From a bacterium (GTDB lineage Bacteria > Zhuqueibacterota > Zhuqueibacteria > Oceanimicrobiales > Oceanimicrobiaceae), in contig JBHHXN010000032.1 of assembly GCA_046757025.1 (NCBI GenBank), positions 1 to 37,616 of the forward strand: a DNA stretch of 37,616 nucleotides, in the 5' to 3' direction. Within the stretch, counting starts at the first letter, position 1. Each line of letters opens with the position of its first letter. The position numbers and the translations under genes were made by a program. The notes below the pieces were generated by a model that did not search any database, was not told the origin of the DNA, and saw only the letters and a list, made by a program, of their open reading frames with translations. Below are positions 1 to 16,527 of the stretch, in pieces.

Positions 1-1
1 C

Positions 2-2161
2 GTACCAGCTGCCATTCCAGCGCAAAGTAGCCGAGGCTTTCTGGATTTTAGGATTGCGCATGGCAATCCGTGCATAATCATCTGGCGTAATGGCGCGCTC
101 CAGGCGCTTGCGAAACGTGGTGGGCGCAAACAACTTGACCTCGGAGATGGGCTCCGGCTCGCGGCCGCCTTGTGCAGGAAAAGGATTTCGAACGAAGACC
201 CGGCCGCCGCTGAAAGCGGTTTTGCGCAACACCATGTGCGCAATGCGTTCAGCGCCCACGTTGCCGTTCACGCCGTTCCCCACTCGGTACTCTGCCTGAA
301 ACTCCCGGCCTGCCTCCGGCAATCGCCCGGTTTCTCCGTCTCCAAATCTTAGATGCGCCCGGCCCGTTTCATCCATTTCAGCTGTAAAATGTCGGTCATC
401 TTCTTCGCTGGCCAGCAAATCTCTACGGGGTTCCCAGGCGCCGTTGCCGTCGGCGAGGGGTTCGAATTTCAAACTAGTCAGTTTGAGCTGCGGTACGGCA
501 GCGCGGGGATCCTGCTGCAACCGTCCGGCAGCCGGCCCGTCATCAGAAAGGTGCTCGCTAAAAGTAAGCGGACCCTGTTTGAGCACCGGCCGAAACAATT
601 CCGGTAGCAAACTCATGTCGGCCGGCCGGCCCTCTCTTTCGCAATGGACGTCAATCATTTTTGTAGGCACTTTTCCTAAAGGCTCATCATCTATTCGGCG
701 GCCGTGGTCCACCAGCAGCACATTTCCGCGCGCCACACTGAGGTCACGCAGCACGCAGCACTCCGGCGCCGGTCCCACAGCAGAAATGCATAACGGAAAT
801 GGCAGGGCGTCTTCCTTTGACCAGGCAATTTCCACCAGAGGTTTGTCGTCATAGAGCTCGTCCATTACCGGTTCAACCTTCGTTAACCGCACGATATGCC
901 TATGAGCGGGGTCTGCGTCCGCCTCGTTGCCGGTTTTGGGTCCGCGCACCTCTTCAAAGATAAGAAAATCTCCGGGTTGCAATTTTAAGTCGATATTTGA
1001 AAAATCGTCTTGGACGGTCATTTGATTGCCAGCGGGTTTCGGCGTCGCTATTTCAACTTGCGGCGGGGTCGGAGACCTCCGCCAATCGTATTCCAAAGTG
1101 GCCGAAGTGGCGCCGCGCGGCAAACAGCATTCGTCGTCGCCCCAGGTGTAAAATTTCAAGGTGTTATGCTTTTCAAACAACTCAATTTCAGATTGTGATT
1201 TTTTCACCAGCGGCTCAAAAACTTCATAACTTGCTGAAGGTACGCCGATTAAATCCTCGGCCTTCAGAACCTTTCCCGGCTCCGGTACATCTTTAAAGAC
1301 GGTTACAAAGGACATCTCCTCAGCATCAAGTGTTGCGGAAGTCAGCCCTTCAAGCTCCAGAGAGAGCCAAGCGCGGGCGTTGCAGCCTTCGTGCATCTGG
1401 TAATCCACCAGCCGGCTGTGCCGGCGCACGGAAATGCGTTTGCGCGCCGTGTCCAGATAGGCTTCGGTGGCCACGGCGTCCTGGTAATAGCTTAGGTAGT
1501 CGCCGGCGTAAGCCAGAATTTCTACCAGAGTTATCCCGAGATCCGGCACATGCCGCTCGTGCCAGACGGGCATGATCTGCGTCAACCGGTCCAGAAGTAA
1601 TTGCCGAAAACTGGCGTAATCTTTGGCCAGATAGTTGATCGCCACCGGCGGCATTTTTTTGGGCGGACAGATTTGTCGAGGTTGGCAGTCCAGATCACTG
1701 GGACAATTCGCTTTAAAACTAAACGGTAAAGTCGCGTAGCGGGAATCGAAACCCGGCAGCGGCCGCTCCGTGGGGTGATCGTTTTCATCCACATCGGTAA
1801 ATTTCAAGATGTAAGTCGAAAAATCCCCGGGCTTATCTACTTCGATTTCAAAGTAGTCGTCGATCTGCGGGTTAGGGCTGACTTTTAGCTCGATGCTGGT
1901 CACGTTGATTTCTGCGGCGCGACGGCGACCAGTGATTTGTACATATTTGAGCGCTTGCCGACGGTGCTCTTCGCTGCCGGTGAAAACCGCTTTGAGAGCT
2001 TCGGACGCTTTGCGGATCAGAAAGACGTGCAATTGGCGCTGATCTTTCGAGCAGATTTCGAGAAAATCGAGGCCGTTGAATTCCTTGCCCTCTACATCAC
2101 CTGAAACCCGCACTTTCTCGCGTCGTTTTTCATTTTGACAGCTCAATACTTTTTGGATCAT
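2..2161 (-). CDS. eCIS baseplate wedge/assembly protein (Afp11/Pvc11, baseplate J-like); 3' end lies outside the window, at least 720 aa
   Basis: Absent from the ORF track because no stop falls in the window. Manual translation from ATG 2161 (ATGA overlap with the gp25 stop) gives MIQKVLSCQNEKRR...FSFKANCPSDLDC...INYLAKDYASFRQLLLDRL...DLGITLVEILAYAGDYLSYYQDAVATEAYLDTARKRISVRRHSRLVDY...FYTWGDDECCLPRGATSATL...RAITPDDYA...RWNGSWY. The segments translated at both ends and in the middle share one frame. These motifs are typical of eCIS baseplate proteins. Confidence 0.92.
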   Translation of the reverse strand, partial: MIQKVLSCQNEKRREKVRVSGDVEGKEFNGLDFLEICSKDQRQLHVFLIRKASEALKAVFTGSEEHRRQALKYVQITGRRRAAEINVTSIELKVSPNPQIDDYFEIEVDKPGDFSTYILKFTDVDENDHPTERPLPGFDSRYATLPFSFKANCPSDLDCQPRQICPPKKMPPVAINYLAKDYASFRQLLLDRLTQIMPVWHERHVPDLGITLVEILAYAGDYLSYYQDAVATEAYLDTARKRISVRRHSRLVDYQMHEGCNARAWLSLELEGLTSATLDAEEMSFVTVFKDVPEPGKVLKAEDLIGVPSASYEVFEPLVKKSQSEIELFEKHNTLKFYTWGDDECCLPRGATSATLEYDWRRSPTPPQVEIATPKPAGNQMTVQDDFSNIDLKLQPGDFLIFEEVRGPKTGNEADADPAHRHIVRLTKVEPVMDELYDDKPLVEIAWSKEDALPFPLCISAVGPAPECCVLRDLSVARGNVLLVDHGRRIDDEPLGKVPTKMIDVHCEREGRPADMSLLPELFRPVLKQGPLTFSEHLSDDGPAAGRLQQDPRAAVPQLKLTSLKFEPLADGNGAWEPRRDLLASEEDDRHFTAEMDETGRAHLRFGDGETGRLPEAGREFQAEYRVGNGVNGNVGAERIAHMVLRKTAFSGGRVFVRNPFPAQGGREPEPISEVKLFAPTTFRKRLERAITPDDYARIAMRNPKIQKASATLRWNGSWY

Positions 2162-2523
2162 TGCACGTTACTCCGTTCAAAGGATTCGTTGCGGGATTCA
2201 CCGCTGCGCAAAACTACGTATTGAATTTCAACCCGCAAATTGGCATCGTCGCTTTGTACCAGCAGCTCCTGCACCTCGATGAGGTCCCCCAGCCACTGCT
2301 GCAGAGCAGCTTGAATGGTCACCTGCAAAGTCGCGGCTAATTCGGGACTGTTGGGCTCGAACACCAGTTGCAGCAAGCCGCTGCCAAAATCAGGACGATT
2401 GACTCGTTCTCCCGGACTGGTGAAAATGAGCTGTTCGATGAGATTGCGAATATGTCCTTCATCGTTAATGGCAGCGGTGCGGCCGGCGCCATCAAAATGA
2501 AATGGAAAGTCGATATTTAGCAT
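2158..2523 (-). CDS. GPW/gp25 family baseplate protein (Afp9-like)
   Basis: HIRNLIEQLIFTSPGERVNRPDFGSGL is the gp25 motif; 121 aa; lies between the PAAR-like and baseplate genes. Confidence 0.93.
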   Translation of the reverse strand: MLNIDFPFHFDGAGRTAAINDEGHIRNLIEQLIFTSPGERVNRPDFGSGLLQLVFEPNSPELAATLQVTIQAALQQWLGDLIEVQELLVQSDDANLRVEIQYVVLRSGESRNESFERSNVQ

Positions 2524-2644
2524 TTTTGTTTTATCGTTTTATTGTCCATTTTAAATCAATTATTTTCGATTCACTCGTTCAGTATCTTACTTCAAACAAG
2601 ATTTCCACTAATGAAAATAACGAAATTCGTAAACCGACTTATAG

Positions 2645-2693
2645 ATTTCGATATTCGAGTTTTCATTTTCGATTTACGATCTTCGCTTTTCGT
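2645..2693. repeat. Degenerate tandem heptamer repeat (consensus ~TTTTCGA x7), with an imperfect inverted partner at ~2609-2633
   Basis: ATTTCGA TATTCGA GTTTTCA TTTTCGA TTTACGA TCTTCGC TTTTCGT read directly from the sequence. Confidence 0.75.
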
Positions 2694-2757
2694 TTTTTTC
2701 TACCTGGAAGTCTGTCGTGGCATCTTTTTGAACAGTGTATCGCATCACTTACTCATC

Positions 2758-3093
2758 TCAGATTCCCTGGACACGCGTCTGCGTGGCCAATATATTCGGC
2801 GGTCCCTGGGGTATTTGCTCGGCGCTCAGACAAATCCCTGAACTGGTTTGTAAAATCACCGGCTGCCCCATGACCTTCACCCTGACCGCTGGCACCAGCC
2901 ACTGCACTTTGATGCAGGGCTGCGGCTTTGGTCCTGGCACGGTAAACGGACAACCAGCAATGGGATAATTATCCCCCAGTGTGGCCACCGGCTGCCCGCT
3001 GACGGTTACGCGGGTGTTGCTGCTCACCACCGAAATTTGTCCGGCATGAGGACATTGTGCAGTGGCATTCACATGATAAAAAAGTCCAGGCAT
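2758..3093 (-). CDS. PAAR-like / DUF4280-type spike tip protein (Afp10-like)
   Basis: 111 aa; Cys/His pattern CPHAG...GCPF...PCI resembles PAAR-like metal-binding tips; GGAGG RBS; follows the gpV spike gene. Confidence 0.8.
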   Translation of the reverse strand: MPGLFYHVNATAQCPHAGQISVVSSNTRVTVSGQPVATLGDNYPIAGCPFTVPGPKPQPCIKVQWLVPAVRVKVMGQPVILQTSSGICLSAEQIPQGPPNILATQTRVQGI

Positions 3094-3116
3094 TGAGAAC
3101 CTCCACTAAAAAGTCG

Positions 3117-3632
3117 TCAAGTAATTACCAGTGCGCCATTATTGATGGTGACTGTATTTCCCGTCAGCATGATGGTGGCGCCTTTGCCGTTGGAAATGGT
3201 GATGCCGGTATCGTTGATGGAGATAAAACCACCCGACTTGATCTTGAGCAAAAACCCGCCAGTGGGACCTGGAACGTCGCTCATCTGCAAAGTATTTTGC
3301 CCGACCGTTTGCATGACCATATTCTGTATTGCCGGCGGCGAAGCTAAAGCCAATGCCGGAATCTCAGTTTGCGACCCCCACCAGCAGCCGCTCCAGATAG
3401 GATAATCGGGATCCCCCTGTTCGTATTCCACCCACACGCCCGAACCAATATTCGGTACCACGTACATGCCCGATTGCATGCCGGCAAACGGCAGACAGGG
3501 CATGGCCCAGGTGGAAGGTATCAATCCTTCCACGTCCGGCACTTGCACCAGCAGCCGCCCCTGTCGCAGGGGATCGATGTTATTCAGAACCAGACCACGA
3601 TATTTGCCAAAAAATTTATTGTTATCACTCAT
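3117..3632 (-). CDS. Phage baseplate assembly protein V / Gp5 OB-fold spike (C-terminal part of a split VgrG/Afp8)
   Basis: FFGKYRGLVLNNIDPLRQGRLLVQVPDV...WAMPC...VPNIGSGVWVEYEQGDPDYPIWSG, then short beta-strand repeats. Confidence 0.92.
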   Translation of the reverse strand: MSDNNKFFGKYRGLVLNNIDPLRQGRLLVQVPDVEGLIPSTWAMPCLPFAGMQSGMYVVPNIGSGVWVEYEQGDPDYPIWSGCWWGSQTEIPALALASPPAIQNMVMQTVGQNTLQMSDVPGPTGGFLLKIKSGGFISINDTGITISNGKGATIMLTGNTVTINNGALVIT

Positions 3633-4753
3633 ACGCGTACTCTCGAAATGGAAGATTTCACCCCGCCTCGTACCAGCGAGAAACTTTGTTTATATTCACC
3701 TATTTTAATGTTGTGAGTCACACTTTTCACAAAATAAAGACCATCTTCTGTCAAGCCGGCTCCGCGCACCGAGATGAGCTGCCGCGGTTTTATGACCTGC
3801 CCGTAGCGGAGCACATCGAGCTGTCCGTTAGCTGATACCGCATCCGCTGCATTTGCCAGCGTGGAAAGCGCATTACAGGCAGCTTCAGCCCAATCTTTTT
3901 TTGCCGTATCACGCAACACCTGTGATTTCATTACGGTGGCTAATTTGGCCGCCAATGGGGGTTTCAACGGATTTAGAGGGGGAATGGGCACTGGAATTGG
4001 AATTTTGGTTCTCTTTTCTTGAATTTGAACCAATAAGAGTTTATTAGATAAACCATCGTAAGAAAAATTCAAGGATTCCACGTTAGTGGCCGCATCCATG
4101 TCGATGCTGAGCGCGGGCTGCGATGCACCGAACCGAATCTCCGGTCCCCAGTAAGCCCGACTGATCCCCGGTTTGGGTCCGGGATCGATATAAAAAACAT
4201 AACCGCATTGTTGGCCGAGACTGTTGATATAATTGAGATCCGTACCCTGATGTTTAGCGATGCTTTCCAAAGGATTTTTCACAAATGACAGTAAAGTTGG
4301 CACGACTATGGGAATAATTCCAAACACAGCGTATTTCGCAAGAATCAAGGCCACGCGCGCCCCAAAAGGTAGGGACGCGTAAGGAAATCCGGTCAAATCG
4401 ATAAAGTCCATCAGTACGCTCAAATCCATGCCGGTGATGGTAAGCGCGGCCTGGCCGGGCTCGTTGCTGGCGGTGACGTCTTGTTTGGTGATCACGCCGT
4501 CCATCAAGACGTGGGCAGCGCCGTTCACTGTGGCCACGATGATCACACGCGTGCGCGGATCAAAAAAGCCAGAGGGCAGGTAGTTGCGGCTGATGGCGGA
4601 ATTTTTTCCCAGGGTAAATTTCAACTGAAATCCGCTCTGACTGCTGGCTGCGGAAGTCACCTGCACTTCCGTCAGCGACTCAATCACGTCTTTGGGCACC
4701 GCTCTTGGAATGACGGAACCCATTTTCAAAGTAAGGTAAAATCCCCGGTTCAT
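3629..4753 (-). CDS. Baseplate hub protein (gp27/phage late control D-like; N-terminal part of a split VgrG/Afp8)
   Basis: 374 aa; VLMDGVIT, QGTDLNYINSLG..GYVFYIDPGP, GQLDVLRYG..KPRQLISVRGAG...DGLYFVKSVTHNI; sits between the LysM and gpV genes. Confidence 0.8.
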   Translation of the reverse strand: MNRGFYLTLKMGSVIPRAVPKDVIESLTEVQVTSAASSQSGFQLKFTLGKNSAISRNYLPSGFFDPRTRVIIVATVNGAAHVLMDGVITKQDVTASNEPGQAALTITGMDLSVLMDFIDLTGFPYASLPFGARVALILAKYAVFGIIPIVVPTLLSFVKNPLESIAKHQGTDLNYINSLGQQCGYVFYIDPGPKPGISRAYWGPEIRFGASQPALSIDMDAATNVESLNFSYDGLSNKLLLVQIQEKRTKIPIPVPIPPLNPLKPPLAAKLATVMKSQVLRDTAKKDWAEAACNALSTLANAADAVSANGQLDVLRYGQVIKPRQLISVRGAGLTEDGLYFVKSVTHNIKIGEYKQSFSLVRGGVKSSISRVRV

Positions 4754-5058
4754 AATGGCTGGCCCGAAAGGCCTTCTGGTAAAGTGATTCTCAATTTACG
4801 GTTGATTTCTTCAGTGAGCTCTTCGGGACGCATGGCGTTGTTGGCGTCGCAAATACGCCAGAACAGCTCGGCATCGCCCAGATGCTCCGCACTGATATTA
4901 TCCAGCCGATCACCCTCGGTGACCGCGTGCTCTTCGATCAAATCGAAGCGCTCCGCCGGCGGTACGAACCGCCGCAGCAGGTAGGGTATACTCCTGCCAT
5001 CCTCGGTTTTGAATTCGGCTTTCTCGATTTCATGATAACGACTGTTAATAGGAAACAT
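4750..5058 (-). CDS. LysM-like (phage tail X-like) eCIS protein, 102 aa
   Basis: Start moved to ATG 5058 (MFPINSRY), preceded by a GAGGTG RBS. Contains EHAVTEGDRLDNISAEHLGDAELFWRICDAN. Confidence 0.85.
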   Translation of the reverse strand: MFPINSRYHEIEKAEFKTEDGRSIPYLLRRFVPPAERFDLIEEHAVTEGDRLDNISAEHLGDAELFWRICDANNAMRPEELTEEINRKLRITLPEGLSGQPL

Positions 5059-5065
5059 AATCACC

Positions 5066-5725
5066 TCATTTGATTCGACTGATTCCAAGATTGAGCAATA
5101 AGCCGGTTTTGCTTTTGCTCGCTCGCTGTTCCTTTTGCTGGTGATGTACCATGAACAAATTGCTGGCTTTATGAGAAAATTGCAAATCATTGGTGTTCAA
5201 GACTCGCATTCCCAGACTGACTTTTGCCCGAATGGGATTCAAAGCGGCATTAAAAAATTCTTCGGTGATGCTAAATTCCGTCAAGCGCACCGGCAGCACC
5301 CGTTTAGCGCTCCAAACAAACAAAGCCAGCGGGGATTCCACAGGGCTGATTTCCAGCGTGCCAACGTTGGCCAGATTATTGTTTTGCTGCACAGTACGGC
5401 TGGCCGGGTAAACAATGGTTTCTAAAACATCCAACTGAGGCAGGATACCAAAATTAACTGCGTCCGGACTCTGGCCAGGAAATTCCAGTTGATCCGTGGC
5501 GTCTATTTCCACGTCCACCTTGATGGTTTCGGCCGGCGCACCTTTGAGTCGCAGGGTTTCGCTGCGATCGCCGCCATCCGCACCCGTGCCCATTATCTCC
5601 AGAGTACGAGTCAGGGTTTCGGGATTGTACTGAAACGAAATCACCCGCAGGACCGCCAGTGAATTCGGATTTAATAAAACGATGCCGCCTTTTACAAGTC
5701 GAGGCGCTCCGGGAAATGTACTCAT
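5066..5725 (-). CDS. CIS tube-initiator-like protein (Afp7/Pvc7 N-terminal, tube-like fold)
   Basis: ISFQYNPETLTRTL...PLALFVWSAKRVLPVRLTEFSITEEFFNAALNPIRAKVSLGMRVL; directly upstream of the LysM gene, consistent with a split Afp7. Confidence 0.82.
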   Translation of the reverse strand: MSTFPGAPRLVKGGIVLLNPNSLAVLRVISFQYNPETLTRTLEIMGTGADGGDRSETLRLKGAPAETIKVDVEIDATDQLEFPGQSPDAVNFGILPQLDVLETIVYPASRTVQQNNNLANVGTLEISPVESPLALFVWSAKRVLPVRLTEFSITEEFFNAALNPIRAKVSLGMRVLNTNDLQFSHKASNLFMVHHQQKEQRASKSKTGLLLNLGISRIK

Positions 5726-5839
5726 TGAGCAAGTATCCTTTCAAAGTTTTTTAATACCTGAGCTCTACTATTCATTAGCGTAGTATTTTTTGGCGTTCAA
5801 GTTTTACAGACTGAGTAAAAAGTCATAAATCCTTTATTC

Positions 5840-5911
5840 TGTCATTCAGCAGGAATCTTTTTAGTTTGGAAGCAAATGACTGTTCCTTAAAAAGATTTTT
5901 CCAGAATGACA
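5840..5911. repeat. REP-like palindrome TGTCATTC...GAATGACA with inner arms AATCTTTTTA/TAAAAAGATT
   Basis: Nested inverted repeat seen directly; shares its ends with the element at 33319-33352. Confidence 0.7.
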
Positions 5912-6023
5912 CGACCCGCTGGGTTGGATGATTCACATAGGCTCTGAGGCACAAATACCCACTTTCTAACAAATCAATTCGTTTGTACATATTTGCAAAC
6001 AGTTATCGCTTAAATCATGTATC

Positions 6024-6280
6024 CTAAACTTGCAAACTGCCGTAAAGATTTTGCGCAATTTGAAATCCCACCGTCCGGGCACTTGAATTGGCCGGAACTT
6101 CAAACGCACCTGCATTTAACAAGTCAATTTGACCGGCTTCTGCCACATTTGGAGAAATGCCTTCATTCAAAAACAATCGCTGCAACTCATTCTGCATAGC
6201 CTGACGAACCTCAAATCCATCGCAAAATTCAAATCCGTGCAGCACCAGTTCGTCGATATGCAAATCCAAATCGAATGGTT

Positions 6281-6284
<4 letters not shown>
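6024..6284 (-). CDS. Small eCIS-associated hypothetical protein (~86 aa)
   Basis: LHIDELVLHGF motif, which I recall from small proteins following the ATPase in similar loci; ATG 6284 overlaps the ATPase stop (ATGA). Confidence 0.75.
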
Positions 6285-8284
<2,000 letters not shown>

Positions 8285-8288
8285 GGTT

Positions 8289-10487
8289 TTAGACAGTGTG
8301 TGTTTTTATGATTTCACCCTCGCTGGGATCAAAACGAAACCCGGTTTTGACAATATTTGTGATGTTTAACGTATAGACTCCGTCGCCATCCTCGGTTGAA
8401 AATCTCGCCACCCCGCGGGAATCGGTATTTTCGGTTTGTTCCTCTGTGCGGCCATTGGGCAGGGTCCAGGTGGCGGACACCGCTGCGTCGGCAATCTTTT
8501 CTTTGCTTTCGTCTTTCACCGTGACCTTGGCGCGCACGCGTATTTTTCCTTCTCGCTGTTCCGCCTCCAGCTCGATTTTTTCCGAGCGAATAGGGGTACC
8601 GCCGGCGCCGGTGTCGCCACCAATCACAATGGCATTCACCAGATCGCTGTTTTCGCGATCAAATTCATAGCCGCTCTTTTCGATATTATTGATGTTGAGC
8701 GTGTAGGTGCCATCGCCATCCAGCACCATAAAGCGCGCCACGCCGCGCGTGTCGGTGAGCTCATTTTGCTGAGCAGAACCGCCTTCGGGTAAAAACCAGG
8801 TAATAAACACGTTTGCTTCGGAAATCTTCTCCTGGTTTTCATCGCGTACGGTCACTTTGGCGCGAATGCGCGTTTGTTCATTTTTGATTTCCTTTTCCAA
8901 TTCGATCCTGGTGGATCGCATCTTCAACAACGGCGAGGCCGTGGAAATGCTTTTCTTCAAAACACTGTTCGCTGAATCGAAATTGAAATTGGCCTTCGAC
9001 ACTTCCTTTATTTCCAGCGAATACTCACCCGTCCCATTTGAAATGGTAAACAGCGCCACGCCCGAACTGTTGGTAGTGGCGTTTTTGCTTTGCTCAGTGG
9101 CGTCCGGCAAAGTCCAGAGCGCCGTTAACGCCGCGCCTTCCACAGCCGCGTTGGCTTCATCTTTCACCGAAATGAGCGCGTTCACATTGAACACGCCGCC
9201 CGATTCTTCAAAAGACAGACCGATATCGGTGACGCGTAATTTGGCCAACGGCGGCGCCGGCCCAATTTGAATCTTCGGCCCTTCAAACTTGCCACCCTCA
9301 TCCACTTGCAGCGGACTTTGGGCGCCATCTATTTGTAGGCGTACCAGATAGAGCCCGTTTTTTACATCGCGGATGGGAATGTTCACCGTCCTCGAATCCT
9401 GTTCGCGTGGGGCAGCTGGAAAACTGTAAGAATCCGAAGTCGAATTGTCTGCCGTGGGAACGGTGTTTAACAGCAAAAGCACACGCTGCATTTTACCAAC
9501 CCGAGGTTGCACGGTTACCTGCACTTCCTGTTTATTTTCATCGTACTGAATGTCCGCTTCATCAAAATTCGGCTGCAGTACAAATGCCGCCACATTCGAT
9601 TCAAATCCATACGGCGGTGGGCCGGCAAATATCACGTGCACCACCTGAATGCCCTGCACGCCGGCTTGCAGCTCGTCGATGTTCGGTAGCGTCGAAAGGG
9701 AGAGTTTGATTTCGGTGTCCACCACCGATTGCGGTGTCGCCAATTGACCGCCGATTCGCACCTGGGAATTCTTGCTCTGCAATTTCTTGCCGCGAATCAA
9801 AATGGTGCTGCTGCTCAGAATGGCGGCATCGGCTCCATCTTCCGAAAGTATCGTTTCAATCACAGGACCTCTAAACGGCTGCACCACGATGTTGCGCTCG
9901 AGCACCGGCAGCGCCGGTTTGGTGGTGATTTCACTTTCAATCAGAACAACGGTCGCCTGAAACGACACCGACAACGAATATGGTATCTGAAAAAACACCG
10001 ACCAGAGTTTTGACAGCTCTTCCAATGAAATTGAGGTGGGGGTGAATTTCACCAGCTCTACTTCATCGGCGAGATTGGATCGCGCTAAAAAATTGTAAGT
10101 GGGATTGATGATGACGTCTTTAATATCTTCTCGTGTTAAAACCGGATGCTCATGGATGGTTCTGACGGTACTGCCTAATAATCGCTGCGGTTCCAAAGTG
10201 ACTTCATTGCCATAAACCGTTAGCAGATAATGTAAATCAATTGCGGCTCGCGGACGCTGAACCATTTGGCTATTGGACCTGCGAGTGGGAAGATCGGTAT
10301 TTCGATAGGCGGCGTTTGGCGTGACCTGATAAAGATAAATGTTCACTCGCGGCGCCGGATTTTGATTGACGAGATTGTTGGGCTGCTCGGTAGTGACCTC
10401 CGCACCGGGCACATCCGATTGCACCGCATCGAGTAAAATGTGCCGTAGGGTGGCGGTTACCGTGGCGATCGCCAAAAAATTACTCAT
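8289..10487 (-). CDS. Afp16/Pvc16-like cap (tail terminator) protein, DUF4255 N-terminus, extended by IPT/Ig-like domains and three ~105-aa repeats
   Basis: MSNFLAIATVTATLRHIL...VNIYLYQVTPNAAYRN...LHYLLTVYG...EELSKLWSVF...YSLSVSFQATVVLI is DUF4255-like; the C-terminal repeats are visible by eye. Confidence 0.88.
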   Translation of the reverse strand: MSNFLAIATVTATLRHILLDAVQSDVPGAEVTTEQPNNLVNQNPAPRVNIYLYQVTPNAAYRNTDLPTRRSNSQMVQRPRAAIDLHYLLTVYGNEVTLEPQRLLGSTVRTIHEHPVLTREDIKDVIINPTYNFLARSNLADEVELVKFTPTSISLEELSKLWSVFFQIPYSLSVSFQATVVLIESEITTKPALPVLERNIVVQPFRGPVIETILSEDGADAAILSSSTILIRGKKLQSKNSQVRIGGQLATPQSVVDTEIKLSLSTLPNIDELQAGVQGIQVVHVIFAGPPPYGFESNVAAFVLQPNFDEADIQYDENKQEVQVTVQPRVGKMQRVLLLLNTVPTADNSTSDSYSFPAAPREQDSRTVNIPIRDVKNGLYLVRLQIDGAQSPLQVDEGGKFEGPKIQIGPAPPLAKLRVTDIGLSFEESGGVFNVNALISVKDEANAAVEGAALTALWTLPDATEQSKNATTNSSGVALFTISNGTGEYSLEIKEVSKANFNFDSANSVLKKSISTASPLLKMRSTRIELEKEIKNEQTRIRAKVTVRDENQEKISEANVFITWFLPEGGSAQQNELTDTRGVARFMVLDGDGTYTLNINNIEKSGYEFDRENSDLVNAIVIGGDTGAGGTPIRSEKIELEAEQREGKIRVRAKVTVKDESKEKIADAAVSATWTLPNGRTEEQTENTDSRGVARFSTEDGDGVYTLNITNIVKTGFRFDPSEGEIIKTHTV

Positions 10488-11218
10488 GGCTTGCCCCCGC
10501 TTTGCTGTTGCAAATATTCACTCAAAGAAAGCACCGGACTGGGCTTGGAAACATTTCGGCGAAATTCAGGTGTTTTCGATGGCATGACGGCCCGCACTTC
10601 CACCCGCCCGATTCGAATCTGCACCGTCGGTTTCGAGGAAGACGCAAGTTGCATTTGAGGAGCCACCGGAAACAGGTCGCGATTGTGCATAATGAAATCT
10701 CGAAACTGATTTTGTGTCCCCTCCCCATCAAGCGTATTCGTTGCAGCATTTATTGACGCCGCACGCATTACTGGATTTTGTTCAGAAATAAGCAATTGAT
10801 TCATTTTTTTGGCGGAAGCGTCCAAAACAGAGCGGTTTGAACCCAGCAGAAGCGAACCGTCTTTTAAACCAGCTTCCTTGAACTGCGGCTTTTGGGCTGA
10901 CATAATTTCGTAGTGACCTGCCGTCTCTTTTTGAAAAATTTGATTGAACCTGGGTGTTGTTACATCCCTTTCCATTTTCTGGTATGAATTATTGTGTGAA
11001 AGCAAGCGGTCATTAATTTGCAAATTTTCACCTTTTGTTGGATTCCCTGCATCCGTTGCCGACGGCTGCATGGGAACCGTTCCCGGCCACGACTCAGTCG
11101 AAAGGCTGTCCTGCGCAACCATGACCGTGGGCTTTGAAAACAACGGTTGAATCATCGGCTGAAGACGCGGTGTCACGCCCAATGTTTGGGCGGTTAAGTG
11201 ACTCAAAAAGCCGGTCAT
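10484..11218 (-). CDS. eCIS-associated hypothetical protein, largely low-structure, with C-terminal VQIRIGRVEVRA...LSLSEYL motif
   Basis: 244 aa; 4-bp overlaps with the genes on both sides. Confidence 0.75.
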   Translation of the reverse strand: MTGFLSHLTAQTLGVTPRLQPMIQPLFSKPTVMVAQDSLSTESWPGTVPMQPSATDAGNPTKGENLQINDRLLSHNNSYQKMERDVTTPRFNQIFQKETAGHYEIMSAQKPQFKEAGLKDGSLLLGSNRSVLDASAKKMNQLLISEQNPVMRAASINAATNTLDGEGTQNQFRDFIMHNRDLFPVAPQMQLASSSKPTVQIRIGRVEVRAVMPSKTPEFRRNVSKPSPVLSLSEYLQQQSGGKP

Positions 11219-11952
11219 GCGGTCACCAAGGCCAGATAGGATTGTCTCCTCCGCGCAGGCAGAGACAAAATATCCTGTTCACTCCAGGCATAACTGCGCG
11301 CCAGGATGTGCACTTCGTGCAGAATCCGTTTTGCCAGAGCCGCGATTTCAGCCCACACATAAGAAATCACATCCAAATCCATCTGACAGAGTTCGCCGCA
11401 TGTTTTACACTCGGACATAAGTCTTATCTCAGCTAACGGATCTAACTCGACCATTTTTTTTGAAATGGCGGAAAGCAACTTTTTGGGGATTCGGGATTTT
11501 TGTACCGGCTTGCCGTCACGCTTCACCCACAAGATGCAGAGATTCTGCAGCAATTTTTCTGCAGATTTTTGGTTTTCGCACTGCGCCACTTCCGCCAGGT
11601 CGAAACTGTTTGGCAGTCGAAAGACCGTTTCATAACCGTCTTGATTGAATGAATGCTCTTCAACGTCCTCTTCCTCTGGCGCAGACAGAGTGAGGTGATC
11701 CGTTTGCAAAGTGACTTCCATTTTTTCCTGGCACGATTCACAGGTAATCCAACCGTGGATCAGACTGCCAAAAATCTGCTGGCGGATTTGCAGCAAGCGC
11801 GCGTCCCGCTGACCTTTGCTCCATTTTGCCAGCGCTGCTCTGGTCGATTCCGGGTAAGCGGCCTGTAAAACGGTCAACGCGCGATCCACCGGATGCTGCG
11901 ATTGCCCGGCTTCCCAGATTTGCAAGAGCAATTGTTCGTTTAAAATTCGCAT
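11215..11952 (-). CDS. T4 gp26-like baseplate / tail assembly chaperone with two CxxC motifs
   Basis: GQRDARLLQIR..FG, CESC and CKTC, FRLPNSFDL, LHEVHILARSYAWSEQDILSLPARRRQSYL; directly follows the tube gene. Confidence 0.75.
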   Translation of the reverse strand: MRILNEQLLLQIWEAGQSQHPVDRALTVLQAAYPESTRAALAKWSKGQRDARLLQIRQQIFGSLIHGWITCESCQEKMEVTLQTDHLTLSAPEEEDVEEHSFNQDGYETVFRLPNSFDLAEVAQCENQKSAEKLLQNLCILWVKRDGKPVQKSRIPKKLLSAISKKMVELDPLAEIRLMSECKTCGELCQMDLDVISYVWAEIAALAKRILHEVHILARSYAWSEQDILSLPARRRQSYLALVTA

Positions 11953-11955
11953 TTC

Positions 11956-12480
11956 TTAGGCCGGCTCGGTAAAGCTGGGTTCGGTGGGTTCCACCACGTT
12001 TTCATCGCGTCGCCAACCCTCGTTTTCAAGCTTGAGCATTTCGATGGCCACGGCATTGGCATTGGCGTCCAGCTCCGGCAGCGCCTGAAACTCCGACACC
12101 CAGCAACGAAAAACGTTGTAAGCAATCACCAACTGCCCGGCTTCGTTGTAAACTTCGATGGTGATATCCTTGCGAAAATCGGCCAGGGAGACTTCCGCTC
12201 CCAGGCCGGCGCCCTGGCTCCAGACTTTGTTTGCCCACTGTTCAAACTCGGGATCATGCGTCACCCCGCGCTCCAGCGTAACCGCTTCGTACTGGGTTCG
12301 TCCCGGCGACTTGCGATCGCTGCTGGGATCGCCCCCCTCGCGATGGGACACCACCTCGGTGGTGCGTTTTAAAATGCTCACCTTGCTGACGCCAGCGACA
12401 TACTTGTTGTCCCATTTAACGCGAAATTTAAAATTTTTGTAAGGATCAAATCGTTGTGCATTAACGCTAAACTGTGCCAT
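11956..12480 (-). CDS. Contractile tail tube protein (T4 gp19-like; Afp1/5)
   Basis: RFDPYKNFKFRVKWD...VSHREGGD...KSPGRTQYEAVTLERGVT...FRKDITIEVYNEAG...CWVSEFQALPELDANANAVAIE; AGGAGG RBS. Confidence 0.96.
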   Translation of the reverse strand: MAQFSVNAQRFDPYKNFKFRVKWDNKYVAGVSKVSILKRTTEVVSHREGGDPSSDRKSPGRTQYEAVTLERGVTHDPEFEQWANKVWSQGAGLGAEVSLADFRKDITIEVYNEAGQLVIAYNVFRCWVSEFQALPELDANANAVAIEMLKLENEGWRRDENVVEPTEPSFTEPA

Positions 12481-12491
12481 AAAATGCCTCC

Positions 12492-14192
12492 TTAGGTCTC
12501 GATTTGCCCAGCCAGCTGCTGGATTTTGATGATGACAAATTCGGCCGGTTTCAATGGCGCAAAACCAACCAGAATATTGACGATGCCCTGATCGATATCG
12601 TTTTGTGTAGTAGTCTCACTGTCGCACTTGACCAAATACGCTTCCCGTGGCGTGCTGCCCTGGAAGGCGCCCTGGCGGAAAAGATTGTGCATGAACGCCC
12701 CAACGTTCAAACGAATCTGCGCCCACAGCGGTTCGTCGTTGGGCTCAAAAACCACCCATTGTGTTCCGCGGTAAAGGCTCTCTTCGATAAACAACGCAGT
12801 CCGGCGCACCGGAATGTATTTCCATTCCGAAGCCAGACGGTCGTCTCCTTTCAGGGTGCGCGCACCCCAGACGATGCGGCCGGCAGGCGGTTTAAATCGC
12901 AAGCAATTGATGCCCAGGGGATTGAGCTCGCCGTTTTCGAGATCCGTCAGCGGAACACTCAATTCCGGTACCCCCCGCAGAGTGGCATCCAAGCCGGCTG
13001 GCGCTTTCCAGACGCCGCGCTGAGTGTCGGTGCGCGCGAAAATGCCTGCCACCGCTCCACACGGCACGAACGCCTCACGCTGACCATCTTTCAGAGGGTT
13101 GGGCTGTTTTAATCGTGGGAAAAACAGCGCCGCATTCTGACTTCTCGTGCTTATTTCTGTGGCAAATTTGGTTTTGGCATCTTCTTTTGTTTTCCACCCG
13201 TCGGGAGGATCGATGATCAGCATCGCTCTTCGATCTTCACAATATTTTGCGGCTTTGGACCAAACCGTATCATCTGTATTATTTGAAGTATTGTAGGGCG
13301 GGATACAGAGAATATTAAAAAGGTCGGCGTCTTTCAGTGCATAAATACCTTCTTTAGCATTTTCTTTACCAGGCCCACTGAAATCATTGGCATCCAAAGC
13401 TTTGCCGTCGGACGCTAAATCAGCATCTGCAACCTTGCTGTTGGTGGCCGGTGTATTATCGTCCCACCTGTCTTCACCCACTTTGGGAAGATTGTGCTTA
13501 GCCGGTATATTGGCAGGCAGAGGATCCGTAGTAATCCTAAGCAATTTCGATTCATTTTCTAATATTTTATTCACTAAACGAGGACTTTCTTTCACGGTCA
13601 AATTGCGAAAAACTTCCGTGAAGTCGGTTTTTGTATCTCGAATGGTCAAGTTAAATAAATCTGATTTAGTGAGATCGAATCGCTCCGCAACCTCCAAAGT
13701 CACATCATGATCGACTATCAACCGCAAATGGTTGCCCCATTGGCCTGAATAAGCCGCTTCATAAGTAAAGTCACCGTGTTTAATTTTGGCTTTGGCCGGT
13801 CGGGGAGTATCGGCAGAAGTAGAGGAACTTTCCGAGGAGGTTTCACCTTCAGTGGACTCGCTACCTTCTGCAGACGTTTCCTCTCCAGAGGAATCCGATC
13901 CATTTGTGGAGCCGTTTTCATCTTCTTCATGGAATAAACGAACGATGATGGCCCGGCTGCCGCCATTCAAATAAAAATCTCGCACAGCAAACCCAAGATG
14001 ACTTTCTTTCCACAAGCCGCCAAAAATGCGTTCAAAATCAGCAAAGCTGTTAATCGAAATGGGTCGGTTCTCCGGGCCGCGCTGGGCTCGGCCCACAAAC
14101 GCGGTGATAGAGGTGGCCACCCCTATGATGGTACGCACACCGCTGGGGACTTCTTCAACATACACGCCCGGATAAGTTGGTTGAACAGGCAT
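12492..14192 (-). CDS. Contractile tail sheath protein (Afp2/3/4-like)
   Basis: PTYPGVYVEEVPSGVRTI, RGVWKAPAG, NPLGINCLR, VWGARTL, WKYIPVRR, FEPNDEPLW, GFAPLKPAEFVII; AGGAGG RBS. Confidence 0.97.
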   Translation of the reverse strand: MPVQPTYPGVYVEEVPSGVRTIIGVATSITAFVGRAQRGPENRPISINSFADFERIFGGLWKESHLGFAVRDFYLNGGSRAIIVRLFHEEDENGSTNGSDSSGEETSAEGSESTEGETSSESSSTSADTPRPAKAKIKHGDFTYEAAYSGQWGNHLRLIVDHDVTLEVAERFDLTKSDLFNLTIRDTKTDFTEVFRNLTVKESPRLVNKILENESKLLRITTDPLPANIPAKHNLPKVGEDRWDDNTPATNSKVADADLASDGKALDANDFSGPGKENAKEGIYALKDADLFNILCIPPYNTSNNTDDTVWSKAAKYCEDRRAMLIIDPPDGWKTKEDAKTKFATEISTRSQNAALFFPRLKQPNPLKDGQREAFVPCGAVAGIFARTDTQRGVWKAPAGLDATLRGVPELSVPLTDLENGELNPLGINCLRFKPPAGRIVWGARTLKGDDRLASEWKYIPVRRTALFIEESLYRGTQWVVFEPNDEPLWAQIRLNVGAFMHNLFRQGAFQGSTPREAYLVKCDSETTTQNDIDQGIVNILVGFAPLKPAEFVIIKIQQLAGQIET

Positions 14193-14215
14193 GGGAATAC
14201 CTCCTATTAAAATTA

Positions 14216-14494
14216 TTAATTTTCTTTATCCAATATTTCTAATTCTCTGGGAATGTCTTCGAGCTTTTTTTGATTGACACGATAATAATTTTGTAGATCT
14301 TCTTTTTGAATTTCTTCTAAAAACCCTTCTTTAACCAGGTAAGCGATGGCCGCGAGCACAATGTCCACTTTTTCTTCCAAGCGCTGTTGAAAGGTCCAAT
14401 ATTCGGCAATGCCCCGTGCGGTATGCTTGGCGCCTGGTTGTTTTTGGATATATCGTAAAATATCTCGGATGGCCGCCCGTTGTTCATCTGTCAT
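14216..14494 (-). CDS. Small eCIS-leading hypothetical protein, probable winged-helix fold (92 aa)
   Basis: ILRYIQKQPGAKHTARGIAEYW...VLAAIAYLVKEGFLEE...YYRVN resembles a winged HTH; first gene after the sigma54 promoter. Confidence 0.7.
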   Translation of the reverse strand: MTDEQRAAIRDILRYIQKQPGAKHTARGIAEYWTFQQRLEEKVDIVLAAIAYLVKEGFLEEIQKEDLQNYYRVNQKKLEDIPRELEILDKEN

Positions 14495-14560
14495 TTAAAA
14501 AATTAAATTAAATTGATCTACACACGTTAATTGGATGCCGTGGAAATGTCACCCAACCCT

Positions 14561-14576
14561 TGCAAGAATAATTCCA
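14561..14576 (-). promoter_or_regulatory. sigma54 (-24/-12) promoter of the eCIS operon
   Basis: Minus strand TGGAATTATTCTTGCA gives GG-N10-GC with TTGCA at -12; ~67 bp upstream of the 92-aa gene and next to a sigma54 activator gene. Confidence 0.78.
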
Positions 14577-14654
14577 TTAAAATCAGCGGGTTTTAATATC
14601 AGTTAAAATAGCCACTTGTAACAAAAGTAGATTTTCAGCTAAATTTGAAATAGT

Positions 14655-14759
14655 GTGGAGTTTTTCCCCTGCACTTTTTGGTGAAGCGATGGCAAATGTC
14701 ACAAAAACAGAGAATTGTTACCTGGATATTTTTCTTCGCAGTGGGGGGAATTTTTCCAC
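14655..14759. promoter_or_regulatory. Candidate upstream activator sequences (two GTGGA-N5-TCCCC sites in opposite orientation)
   Basis: GTGGAGTTTTTCCCC at 14655-14669 (+) and GTGGAAAAATTCCCC at 14759-14745 (-), roughly 110 and 200 bp upstream of the predicted transcription start. Confidence 0.5.
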
Positions 14760-14883
14760 GCCGATCCCGTTTTGGAATATTTTGAATCAGAAGACCATTT
14801 TGAATTGAGTCTGGACGCTGTGGGAAATTATTATTTTTGCGAGGGCCGCAGCAATTTGTCGTGTGAATTCTGGTGAAGTCCTT

Positions 14884-15921
14884 TTAATGGTAAGATTCCT
14901 CGGAATTCGAACTGCGGTAGCGGCTGGCTTTCAGACGATATTTTCGCATGAGCTTCCAGAAATCACTGGCGTGCATGTCGGCATGTTTGGCACAGCGCGT
15001 CACGATGCCGCGATATTTTTTTAGTAGAACACACAGATATTTTTTTTCGAATGAGGCGACGATTTGCTTTTTGGCTTGTTTCCAGGGCAACGCTTCCAGC
15101 TCCCGGCTGAATGGCAGTGTAGGGTCGAACGGTTTTTTTTGTTTAAAGGATAGTTTGTCGATGGTTTGGACTTGGGAATCGATTAAAGAACGTTTAACAA
15201 AATTCTCCAATTCCCGGATATTTCCCGGCCAGGGATAATCCATTAACGCTTTCAGGGCTCTGGCGGAAAATTGCAGGTTGTGATTCGCATTCAAATCGCT
15301 ATTTTTGGAGATAAAATAATGCACTAACAGCGCGATGTCCTGAACACGATTGCGCAGCGCCGGCACCTGCAGCTCATATTCGGCCAGCCGATAGTACAAG
15401 TCTTCGCGAAAATCGCCTGCGGAAACTTCCTGGCTCAGATCCGAATTGGCCGCGGCCACGATGCGCACATTGGCTTGTCGAAAGCCATTTTCTCCCAACC
15501 GCCGAAAACAGCCGGTCTCCAGAAAATGATTTAGTTTTACCTGCGAGCTAAGGGGCAGAGAATTGATCTCATCCAGGAATAAAATGCCTTCGTGCGCTTC
15601 TTCCACCAAACCAGAGCGCTCTTTGTACGCCCCGGTGAAAGCGCCTTTGGAGTGACCAAACAATTGACTCTCAAACAGATTTTCCGGCGTCGCACCGCAG
15701 TTGAACGGAATGAAAGGTCTGTTATGGCGTTCGCCGTACTGGTGAATAAATTCGGCACATCGGCCCTTGCCGGTGCCGGTTTCGCCAATCAACAGCACCG
15801 AAACATTTATATCGGATATTTTTTTGAGTTTTTCTACAAGCCCCAAAAAGTCAGGATGCTGCCCGATAAGCCCTTCCCGGGCGTGTTTACGCCGCAAGGA
15901 AAGCAATATATCTTCTTTCAT
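14884..15921 (-). CDS. sigma54-dependent enhancer-binding protein (AAA+ plus Fis-type HTH) with no N-terminal sensor domain
   Basis: GETGTGK, ESQLFGHSKGAFTGA, LFLDEI, FREDLYYRL, WPGNIRELEN and a C-terminal HTH; the AAA domain starts at about residue 18; AGGAG RBS. Confidence 0.95.
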   Translation of the reverse strand: MKEDILLSLRRKHAREGLIGQHPDFLGLVEKLKKISDINVSVLLIGETGTGKGRCAEFIHQYGERHNRPFIPFNCGATPENLFESQLFGHSKGAFTGAYKERSGLVEEAHEGILFLDEINSLPLSSQVKLNHFLETGCFRRLGENGFRQANVRIVAAANSDLSQEVSAGDFREDLYYRLAEYELQVPALRNRVQDIALLVHYFISKNSDLNANHNLQFSARALKALMDYPWPGNIRELENFVKRSLIDSQVQTIDKLSFKQKKPFDPTLPFSRELEALPWKQAKKQIVASFEKKYLCVLLKKYRGIVTRCAKHADMHASDFWKLMRKYRLKASRYRSSNSEESYH

Positions 15922-16076
15922 CTATGCTCCTAAACGCATAAAATGAAATGATCACAAATTTATTTATTTGCTGCACAAAAAAAGGCTAAGGCATTTCTTA
16001 TCTAAGTAATCTATGAATGCAGGCATTACCAGCAAACTATGATGGATAATAAAATTCAGCTAAGGAACACTGCCCA

Positions 16077-16092
16077 AACAAAATTGATGCCA
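16077..16092 (-). promoter_or_regulatory. Possible sigma54 promoter for the activator gene
   Basis: Minus strand TGGCATCAATTTTGTT gives a TGGCA -24 box and GG-N10-GT (variant -12 box). Confidence 0.45.
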
Positions 16093-16226
16093 ACGCAGAA
16101 CAAATACTTTAATTCATATCCCTACGAACAGACGAGATAAAATTGAGTGATGCAAAACTTTCGAAGGAGCGGTTCAGTTAATGAACGCAATGGATAAGAA
16201 AAAAGGTTCTAGAGACAAAAATGTTC

Positions 16227-16266
16227 TCTCAATTAAAAGACACCTCTAATTGAGATTTTCTCTCAA
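16227..16266. promoter_or_regulatory. Overlapping inverted repeats TCTCAATTA-N11-TAATTGAGA and TTGAGA-N5-TCTCAA; possible regulator binding sites
   Basis: Palindromes read directly in the AT-rich intergenic DNA upstream of the activator gene. Confidence 0.45.
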
Positions 16267-16527
16267 AACACATTAATACGCGGTCAACAACCTGGTGGGA
16301 ATTCTAAATTAATTACTATTCAGACAAATCTGCAGTTGTTACAATGATTAAACCTAGTTGGAAAATCGGAGGCGCCATTCAGAATAGCATATAAAAGACG
16401 AAAAATCTCAATACAAGACCTGATGTTCATAATAACAAGATATTTCAAAATAGCAAGAAAAAAGTAGTAAAGCACGAAAAAAGAAAATCGCTTACTAATT
16501 TTGTCAACTTTTTTCAGGACGGCACTT

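What the first reader, a model, noticed from the sequence alone, without database searches (positions are those of the whole stretch)
2..15921. Chromosomal eCIS (phage-tail-like nanosyringe) operon with its own sigma54 control module
Seen: 14 co-oriented, mostly tightly coupled genes covering sheath, tube, cap, ATPase, split Afp7, split VgrG, PAAR-like tip, gp25 and baseplate. No capsid, terminase, integrase or T6SS membrane complex is present in the window. Known: this gene set, especially the Afp15 ATPase with Afp16/DUF4255, marks eCIS rather than a prophage or T6SS. Inference: this is a single-sheath, single-tube variant abutting housekeeping genes, with a decorated cap and a dedicated activator. 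Tail fibres, a second wedge protein and any cargo probably lie beyond the left edge.
Basis: partly seen in the sequence, partly recalled or inferred. Interest (0 to 1): 0.75.

Follow-up and report, generated by a model that had tools for sequence, protein, structure and literature searches.

The report
Nanosyringe operon behind portable sigma-54 switch
A bacterium, likely of the KSB1 group, carries a phage-tail-like injection machine of a known subtype behind a recurring three-part gene switch (a sensor-less sigma-54 activator, its likely promoter and an unnamed small protein) that also sits in front of pilus, secretion and capsule operons in several phyla and likely turns them on, the small protein being weakly predicted to bind and restrain the activator.

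Summary
Fourteen co-oriented genes (2-14192) encode a contractile injection system matching the published subtype IIc reference in 12 genes, in the same order (tube 80% identical). No terminase, portal, TssK or TssL was found in the 95%-complete genome. The single-sheath, split-VgrG layout is standard IIc, not a new variant. Only the cap's three extra Ig domains are unusual (732 aa; 63 of 65 relatives are 403-478 aa).

The regulator is the real result. The sensor-less sigma54 activator and a 92-aa Pfam-less, likely winged-helix gene occur in exactly the same 18 of 79 related loci, in five phyla. A -24/-12 site lies just upstream of the small gene in 48 of 66 loci (2.7 expected), and twin palindromic enhancers recur.

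The cassette is not eCIS-specific. It also heads Tad pilus, secretin, polysaccharide-export, adhesin and protease operons. At the same chromosomal site, a same-family genome has it in front of a different eCIS type, which suggests the structural operon was swapped. Binding of the small protein to the activator has only weak predicted support. I found no description of the cassette in the searches run.

The parts
14884..15921 (-). sigma54 enhancer-binding protein, 345 aa, AAA+ plus C-terminal Fis-like helices, no N-terminal sensor; GAFTGA, Walker B and R-finger intact, Walker A GETGTGKG
   Evidence: PF00158 E 3e-61; motifs seen in the translation and alignment A4; groups with 49 other cassette activators apart from 43 other activators of its own genome, support 98/76
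14743..14760 (-). candidate distal enhancer box (imperfect palindrome), centred about 175 nt upstream of the -24 element
   Evidence: best site (6.4 bits, weak; 14 window positions score as high) for a matrix trained on 42 other loci; aligned position kept in close relatives
14654..14673 (-). candidate proximal enhancer box, centred about 87 nt upstream of the -24 element
   Evidence: second-best site (4.3 bits, weak); family boxes cluster near -80 and -155; aligned in close relatives
14561..14576 (-). sigma54 -24/-12 promoter-like site TGGAATTATTCTTGCA, 82 nt upstream of the small gene
   Evidence: near-identical site in L122, L123, L125, L136
14216..14494 (-). 92-aa protein of an unnamed family, likely winged helix; first gene behind the promoter
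   Evidence: 1142 clusters at E<=0.001; only weak Pfam hits, best E 5.5e-4, among 150 members; Atlas structure TM 0.69-0.70 to Fur/PadR, nearest clusters unnamed
12492..14192 (-). contractile sheath (Afp2/3/4), with a Ser/Glu/Gly-rich insert
   Evidence: PF04984, PF17482; phrog_23; PDB sheaths E<=4e-75
11956..12480 (-). inner tube (Afp1/5)
   Evidence: PF06841, TIGR02241; 80% identical to the IIc reference
11215..11952 (-). T4 gp26/gp51-like assembly chaperone family protein
   Evidence: PF12322 E 1e-10; Atlas 0.97; found in 77 of 79 related loci
10484..11218 (-). subtype-specific protein: conserved N and C motifs around a variable low-complexity linker (221-796 aa in relatives); possibly tape-measure-like (inference)
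   Evidence: C motif in 66 loci, N motif in 44
8289..10487 (-). cap/terminator (Afp16): Pvc16_N, two Ig-like domains, three extra Ig-like repeats (about residues 415-732)
   Evidence: mean pLDDT 82.6
6281..8284 (-). AAA+ ATPase (Afp15) with N-terminal WHD
   Evidence: PF00004, PF22977; 44% identical to the IIc reference
6024..6290 (-). 88-aa subtype-specific protein of unknown role
   Evidence: family found in 59 loci
5066..5725 (-). Afp7 N-terminal part (CIS_tube)
   Evidence: PF19266 above cut-off
4750..5058 (-). Afp7 C-terminal part (LysM-like); start at 5058 inferred
   Evidence: phrog_7145 and phrog_46 weak; relative aligns to residues 43-145 of the long ORF
3629..4753 (-). gp27-like N-terminal half of split VgrG (Afp8)
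   Evidence: two-step profile test; 40% identical to the IIc reference; no direct Pfam, NCBIfam, PHROG or PDB hit
3117..3632 (-). gp5-like OB/spike half of split VgrG
   Evidence: PF04717 E 3e-20
2758..3093 (-). PAAR-like spike tip (Afp10)
   Evidence: weak PAAR_motif and DUF4280 hits; 57% identical to the IIc reference
2158..2523 (-). gp25 wedge (Afp9)
   Evidence: PF04965
2..2161 (-). baseplate J (Afp11), cut by the contig end (873 aa in relative G161)
   Evidence: TIGR02243 above cut-off

Best explanation
This is a subtype IIc contractile injection system operon placed behind a portable, host-anchored cassette in which a sensor-less sigma54 activator likely binds twin enhancer palindromes and likely fires a -24/-12 promoter for the small gene and the structural genes, and the small, likely winged-helix protein would act as a feedback brake by binding the activator. 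Shown by sequence and comparison: gene identities, subtype match, co-occurrence of activator and small gene, the promoter motif at a fixed place, and use of the cassette in front of unrelated surface or export operons. Inferred: that this activator drives this promoter (about 0.85); that particles carry DUF4157-associated cargo and are released by lysis via the fibre and amidase genes on C275/C311 (about 0.55); that the small protein regulates the activator by direct contact (about 0.4). The small gene's place, as first product of an operon run by an activator without its own sensor, is where a trans-acting brake is expected by analogy with group 4 activators.
For: Subtype: 12 genes hit plasmid pSA1, listed as IIc in Chen 2019's supplement, in identical order; the IIa reference gives tube 26% and another order; the window's sheath and the IIc reference lie on one side of a 100-supported branch, the IIa reference on the other. 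Cassette: the same 18 of 79 loci carry both genes, in five phyla, and the label is scattered on the sheath tree (17 changes, at least 10 forced), so it is not one inherited event. Promoter: weighted score >=18.5 in 13 of 18 module loci against 4 of 60 others; strict pattern in 48 of 66 loci against 2 on the reverse strand and 2.7 shuffled. Enhancer: GGGT-N8-ACCC in 18 of 48 regions against 0.3 expected, positions clustered near -80 and -155. Sheath-independent searches: activator directly upstream in 36 of 47 hits and 18 of 27 in two other phyla. RpoN is present. Swap: G012 has efp...M28-activator (64%)-small gene (57%) in the same order, then an ATPase-first eCIS with tube 33%. Binding: weak support, score 0.41 against best control 0.00; runs agree in at least 92% of contacts, partner pLDDT at least 81; the mark was reached by 116 of 157 solved and 2 of 215 mismatched pairs, but at 0.60 or under by only 18 solved and both mismatches.
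Against: No expression data: no RNA holder was listed. The window's own enhancer boxes score weakly (6.4 and 4.3 bits), and its promoter has A for the usual C after GG. 11 of 47 and 9 of 27 small genes have no adjacent activator within the distance examined, some of them on short contigs. The complex pass is weak, a level that is more often wrong than right unless the guess was likely beforehand. The AlphaFold model joins two helices and has no confident PDB match. C275 and C311 are not shown to be linked to C32, and the second baseplate J gene was not found in the assembly. Kin among the loci are not independent (L125 and L136 look identical).
Confidence: 0.62

Rival explanations
1. The operon and promoter are as above, but the small protein is a DNA-binding regulator (repressor, co-activator or DNA-bending helper) acting at the promoter or elsewhere, not a partner of the activator.
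For: Fold neighbours are DNA-binding Fur, PadR and AspA proteins; weak MarR/Fur/F-93 Pfam hits in a few members; some copies lack an adjacent activator.
Against: The best-conserved residues (Y15, P20, A22, G28, I29, W33, L53, N74) include no basic residue; the complex prediction passed weakly over three controls; no third conserved dyad was evident beside the enhancer.
Confidence: 0.3
2. The machine stays in the cytoplasm and acts on the producer cell, as reported for Streptomyces CIS, rather than being released as a weapon.
For: The best solved sheaths are 8bky/8bl4 (that these are Streptomyces entries is recalled); no cargo gene lies in the usual slot between the ATPase and Afp7 (gap 556 nt; 1.6-4 kb in 15 of 20 relatives); PMC12998442 warns that mode of action is unreliable from sequence alone (passages).
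Against: The genome holds a DUF6519+collar fibre gene followed by an endolysin-like amidase and two DUF4157 genes; the cap carries extra adhesin-like Ig domains.
Confidence: 0.25
3. The activator is an unrelated neighbour, one of about 45 in this genome, and the small ORF is incidental.
For: The genome has 46 tblastn matches to the activator; Sigma54_activat is only weakly enriched in eCIS loci (odds ratio 1.59; Geller 2021 supplement).
Against: 18/18 co-occurrence, fixed promoter position, shared enhancer, cassette activators on one side of a branch.
Confidence: 0.04
4. A prophage tail remnant or a T6SS.
For: The tail genes are phage-like, and the contig ends inside the operon.
Against: Pvc16_N and the Afp15-type ATPase are present; Terminase_6N, Phage_portal, TssK and TssL were not found in the genome (94.8% complete); the full relative continues with baseplate, fibre and DUF4157 genes.
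Confidence: 0.02

Closest known systems
eCIS lineage II subtype IIc (Chen et al. 2019, PMC6899500; section 10, passages and supplement passages seen), e.g. Novosphingobium resinovorum plasmid pSA1
   Same: 12 genes in identical order, tube 80%, gp5 63%, split VgrG, PAAR-like tip, subtype-specific unknown genes
   Different: Cap extended by three Ig repeats; no cargo block between ATPase and Afp7; the reference shows no match to the activator or small gene within 20 kb upstream
eBAP5 (DUF6519) fibre-type eCIS (PMC12923769, passages seen)
   Same: DUF6519+collar fibre in the full relative G161 and on contig C275 of this genome
   Different: The link of C275 to this operon is inferred only
VasH / Sfa2 / Sfa3, sigma54 activators encoded in T6SS clusters (review PMC13584744, passages seen)
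   Same: A locus-encoded sigma54 activator beside a contractile machine; Sfa3 also lacks the sensor domain
   Different: VasH and Sfa2 have an N-terminal sensor domain; no small winged-helix partner is mentioned in the passages read; this cassette also heads non-contractile operons
Group 4 activators PspF and HrpR/S (PMC7175178, table passage seen)
   Same: No regulatory domain; regulated by protein binding in trans
   Different: Their partners (PspA, HrpV; recalled) are other folds; part of this family keeps a degenerate receiver-like N-terminus with no Pfam hit
Known eCIS regulators GerE/LuxR, BTAD, RfaH (Geller et al. 2021, PMC8213781; passages and 12 of 15 supplement files searched)
   Same: A regulator encoded next to the operon
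   Different: 'sigma' does not occur in the main text; Sigma54_activat appears only as a supplement row (49 genes, odds ratio 1.59, 4 phyla), without partner gene, promoter or enhancer

Membership tests
eCIS (Chen 2019 core) | Afp1/5 tube and Afp2/3/4 sheath | tested here: met
eCIS (Chen 2019 core) | Afp7, Afp8, Afp9, Afp11 | tested here: met
   CIS_tube plus LysM-like, split VgrG, gp25, TIGR02243; Afp11 is cut by the contig end
eCIS (Chen 2019 core) | Afp15 ATPase and Afp16 cap | tested here: met
   PF00004+PF22977; PF14065 E 5e-45
eCIS (Chen 2019 core) | No phage head genes and no T6SS membrane complex | tested here: met
   PF03237, PF04860, PF05936 and PF09850 not found in the 94.8%-complete genome, controls ring; capsid families and TssM/TssJ were not searched genome-wide
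eCIS (functional sense) | Particles are released and act on other cells | not testable with these tools
   only indirect: fibre and amidase genes on an unlinked contig
eCIS subtype IIc | afp8 split in two; afp10 present | tested here: met
eCIS subtype IIc | Two afp11 copies | tested here: inconclusive
   the contig ends inside the first and no second was found in the assembly; two are present in relative G161
eCIS subtype IIc | Clusters with published IIc loci, with their gene order | tested here: met
   (sheath tree, not the authors' marker set)
eCIS subtype IIa | Gene order and sequence like a published IIa locus | tested here: not met
   pHBOR03: two tubes, short cap, tube 26%
Group 4 sigma54 activators | AAA+ core with GAFTGA, Walker A/B, R-finger; no N-terminal sensor | tested here: met
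   the AAA+ domain starts at residue 18
Group 4 sigma54 activators | C-terminal HTH | tested here: inconclusive
   no HTH_8 hit for the window protein; it aligns with relatives, 7 of which hit HTH_8
Group 4 sigma54 activators | Controlled by a protein binding in trans | tested here: inconclusive
   weak complex pass, 0.41 against best control 0.00
Winged-helix proteins (PadR/Fur-like fold) | Three helices plus a beta-hairpin wing | tested here: inconclusive
   Atlas model TM 0.69-0.70 to Fur/PadR; my model joins two helices, Foldseek has no hit at E<=0.001 and best VIA Z is 5.0

The most novel reading that the evidence does not exclude
A widespread, undescribed plug-in switch: one clade of sensor-less or pseudo-receiver sigma54 activators, a twin TGGGT-N8-ACCCA enhancer, and a large unnamed winged-helix family (over 1100 clusters) that works as a new class of anti-activator. 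It stays fixed in the host chromosome while costly surface machines (at least two eCIS types, Tad pili, secretin systems, capsule export, giant adhesins) are swapped in behind it. It would be the first defined sigma54 circuit for eCIS and a handle to switch on silent IIc nanosyringes.
Probability: 0.35. Interest if true: 0.78.

Novelty: new variant of a known kind. Interest (0 to 1): 0.58.

Why it matters
How most eCIS loci are switched on is an open question: a 2023 review says it is unclear for clusters lacking known regulators (PMC10598620, passage). I found no experimental study naming subtype IIc ('subtype IIc' 0 times in the 30 listed papers). This locus gives a complete, testable circuit with coordinates: activator, enhancer boxes, promoter and a candidate brake. 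A cultured carrier of the same cassette and subtype exists (Rhodanobacter ginsengisoli, L064). If the small protein is an anti-activator, it names a function for a large Pfam-less family and adds a new partner class to group 4 sigma54 activators. The structural operon alone is an ordinary new member of a known subtype in a little-studied phylum.

Tried and rejected
- Autoregulation through the sigma54-like site at 16092 upstream of the activator: rejected, because it ends in GT rather than GC, and such sites are not enriched upstream of cassette activators (4 of 49; 4.4 expected).
- The small protein as an eCIS structural part: rejected, because it also precedes non-eCIS operons.
- Joining C32's left end to another contig by exact overlap or blastn: nothing found. 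The read-level link of C275 to C32 stays open.
- Expression: no RNA holder listed.
- Fold searches for the small protein gave no confident match. The whole-cap fold search returned only generic multi-Ig proteins with TM below 0.2; the cap profile hit two DUF4255 chains weakly.
- The cap's extra repeats found only 2 other proteins among 7992 scored candidates of 402-1281 aa, so their donor is unknown.
- sigma70 and terminator scans were near chance (25 vs 16.2; 32 vs 25.2). No tRNA, no Rfam match, no meaningful repeat in the control region.
- Cluster look-up gave no taxon names.
- Streptomyces davawensis CIS (PMC11126660, section 6 and passages) is described as a cross-phylum clade, but I did not test whether it is IIc. 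PMC12210884 (passages) had no mention of IIc, KSB1, sigma or regulator.
- Literature searches for the cassette listed no paper describing it; the library lacks most subscription papers, bioRxiv supplements were closed, and three Geller supplement files were not searched.
- Earlier scan findings: none for this protein or word set.


Full report
Setting. The window is the whole contig C32 of a 5.96-Mb, 374-contig genome (94.8% complete). The best named EF-P relatives are two 'candidate division KSB1' proteins at 80-81%, with one 'Calditrichaeota' at 80% and one 'Bacteroidetes' at 77%, so KSB1 is likely but not shown. Four runs of one study, labelled hydrothermal vent metagenome, hold the DNA. 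Their contigs show no indels over 1-17000, and three run past base 1.

Structural operon. Fourteen minus-strand genes from 14192 to 2 encode, in order: sheath, tube, gp26-like chaperone, a 244-aa unknown, Pvc16 cap, AAA+ ATPase, an 88-aa unknown, CIS_tube, LysM-like, gp27-like, gp5-like, PAAR-like, gp25 and a truncated baseplate J. All eight core eCIS components of Chen 2019 (passages) are present. Terminase, portal, TssK and TssL families were not found in the genome, while the controls rang. The 79 loci with the closest sheaths (best 80 of at least 605 stretches) mostly share this order across many phyla.

Subtype. Chen's text gives split afp8, afp10 and two afp11 for IIa and IIc, and the supplement lists plasmid pSA1 as IIc and pHBOR03 as IIa. 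Twelve window genes hit pSA1 in identical order (tube 80%); pHBOR03 gives tube 26% and another layout. The sheath tree puts the window with pSA1. The layout is therefore standard IIc.

What is missing on the left. Relative G161 carries the same operon and continues with baseplate J (873 aa), a second baseplate J, a 915-aa unknown, DUF6519, a 1528-aa DUF4157 protein, a TPR protein and a DUF6519+collar fibre. In this genome, contig C275 holds a 5'-open DUF6519+collar gene (50% to G161's), a secreted protein, an endolysin-like amidase and two small membrane or exported proteins; C311 holds two DUF4157 genes. They are the only matches to these two families in the genome and probably belong to this system, but linkage is not shown.

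Cap. Of 65 same-type caps, 63 are 403-478 aa. The window's is 732 aa, one Nostoc cap has one copy of the same repeat (530 aa), and G161 has a different extension (783 aa, InlB B-repeats) (five short caps of another type were set aside). The model shows Pvc16_N followed by five beta-sandwich domains. The decoration is real and lineage-specific; an adhesive role is inference.

The cassette. Among the 79 sheath-selected loci, 18 carry a sigma54 activator upstream and 18 carry a homologue of the 92-aa ORF, and they are the same 18. They span Pseudomonadota (11), Acidobacteriota (3), Nitrospirota (2), Myxococcota (1) and Verrucomicrobiota (1); 69 of the 79 have at least 3 kb upstream. In 16 the activator is within about 2 kb; in L058 and L087 it is further away, and in L056 it is inverted. 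On the sheath tree the cassette label needs 17 changes (at least 10 forced, 24 when shuffled; one locus dropped for lack of a hit), so it has been gained or lost repeatedly.

Promoter and enhancer. With a recalled consensus, 13 of 18 module loci against 4 of 60 others score 18.5 or more within 900 nt of the sheath. A strict YGG-N8-KTGC pattern lies within 200 nt upstream of the small gene in 48 of 66 loci, against 2 on the reverse strand and 2.7 in shuffles. The window's site is at 14576-14561. An unbiased dyad search found GGGT-N8-ACCC in 18 of 48 regions (0.3 expected). The refined consensus TGGGT-N8-ACCCA clusters near -80 and -155 from the -24 element. The window's two best sites fall at -175 and -87 but score weakly; its subfamily has a variant box at aligned positions. 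RpoN is encoded on C61.

The two proteins. The small protein has 1142 clusters at E<=0.001, no convincing Pfam family, and unnamed nearest Atlas clusters, with Fur and PadR as nearest named folds (TM about 0.7) and DsrD as nearest named by features (0.86, a lead only). The 18 module-locus activators scanned with Pfam or aligned show either no N-terminal domain or a roughly 130-160-aa receiver-like stretch without a Pfam hit. Fifty cassette activators form one side of a branch against 43 other activators of this genome (98/76; one long-branch and one short row left out); this outgroup is one genome only. The predicted complex passed weakly: 0.41 against best control 0.00, contacts agreeing in at least 92%, partner pLDDT at least 81. 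The mark was reached by 116 of 157 solved and 2 of 215 mismatched pairs, but at 0.60 or under by only 18 solved and both mismatches.

Not eCIS-specific. Searching with the small protein alone found it in 33 of 167 genomes of the host's phylum. In 45 loci (40 fetched around those hits, 5 metagenome contigs) there were 47 copies, 36 with the activator directly upstream. Downstream genes (58 scanned, mostly from a list of 105) include eCIS operons of at least two layouts (12 loci), Tad pili (3), a secretin/ATPase system (1), polysaccharide export (2), a giant SdrD-repeat adhesin (1), secreted multi-domain proteases (3) and an outer-membrane/RND set. In samples of two other phyla (11 of 201 and 14 of 151 genomes), 27 copies outside the seed loci had an upstream activator in 18, the promoter pattern in 16 and an eCIS gene within 1.5 kb in 10.

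Operon swap. Genome G012 (same family, other genus) has efp, DUF2752, GT2, UDG, LOG, M28, activator (64%) and small gene (57%) in the window's order, then an ATPase-first eCIS with two tubes at 29-33%. The next closest cassettes (L134, L135) also lead into that other kind of operon. The cassette thus tracks the housekeeping genes and the IIc operon looks like the newcomer; the direction is inferred, not tested with a root.

Mechanism. Most likely the activator binds the twin boxes and opens the sigma54 promoter, giving one transcript from the small gene through the structural genes (inferred, about 0.85). The sheath, tube, baseplate and spike would assemble a headless contractile tail, with the ATPase likely loading cargo (by analogy; PMC11495950 seen as a listing only). 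Release by lysis is plausible if C275 belongs here. Because the activator has no sensor and group 4 activators are controlled by proteins in trans, I favour the small protein as a feedback brake (about 0.4) over a DNA-binding role (about 0.3).

Novelty. The machine is a new member of IIc. Sigma54 control of contractile systems is known for T6SS (VasH, Sfa2), and Sigma54_activat appears as a weakly enriched row in Geller 2021's supplement. I found no description of the activator/small-gene/enhancer cassette in seven searches. Verdict: new variant of a known kind, interest 0.58.

Noticed in passing
window 37561-37616: A roughly 55-nt repeat at the contig's right end occurs at 87-100% identity in at least 10 other contigs, several at contig ends; it probably causes assembly breaks.
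   Followed up: no
window 16494-16560: A CT-rich low-complexity repeat at the end of the M28 peptidase gene, read through by the ORF, where many contigs branch; similar tracts lie between activator and promoter in L122 and L123.
   Followed up: no
window 25694-28234: ECF sigma factor, zinc-finger anti-sigma and HtrA-type protease in one string.
   Followed up: no
window 20060-20755: TIGR04283-family glycosyltransferase above cut-off, in a syntenic housekeeping block shared with G012.
   Followed up: partly
window 10484-11218 and 6024-6290: The two IIc-specific unknowns share a similar short beta-type motif (VxVTIGRIEVRA; IxLHIxxLVLxG). The first has conserved ends around a 221-796-aa variable linker and follows the chaperone gene, as a tape measure would.
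   Followed up: partly
L169 (G000:C275) 3363-4935: An endolysin-like amidase+SH3, a 131-aa membrane/coiled-coil protein and a truncated exported protein follow the fibre gene; possibly a lysis cassette.
   Followed up: partly
L170 (G000:C311) 300-2596: Two DUF4157 proteins with C-terminal parts that match no Pfam family; candidate cargo.
   Followed up: partly
L148, L149; L129, L130, L138: Tandem cassettes (small gene-activator-small gene, or two activators in a row), suggesting cascades.
   Followed up: no
protein P0055: The small domain is fused behind a prepilin peptidase A24 domain, in line with the cassette's link to Tad operons.
   Followed up: no
L160-L166: A subclade of activators with a changed HTH sequence goes with a changed enhancer (TGAGGC...GCCTCA), a possible co-evolving specificity pair.
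   Followed up: partly
window 15921-14884 (residues 46-56); L123, L136: Walker A reads GETGTGKGRCAE in the window and L136 instead of the family's GETGTGKE; effect unknown.
   Followed up: no
L042, L051, L056, L087: An extra ORF (121 aa without Pfam hit in three of them) or longer gap lies between the small gene and the sheath.
   Followed up: no
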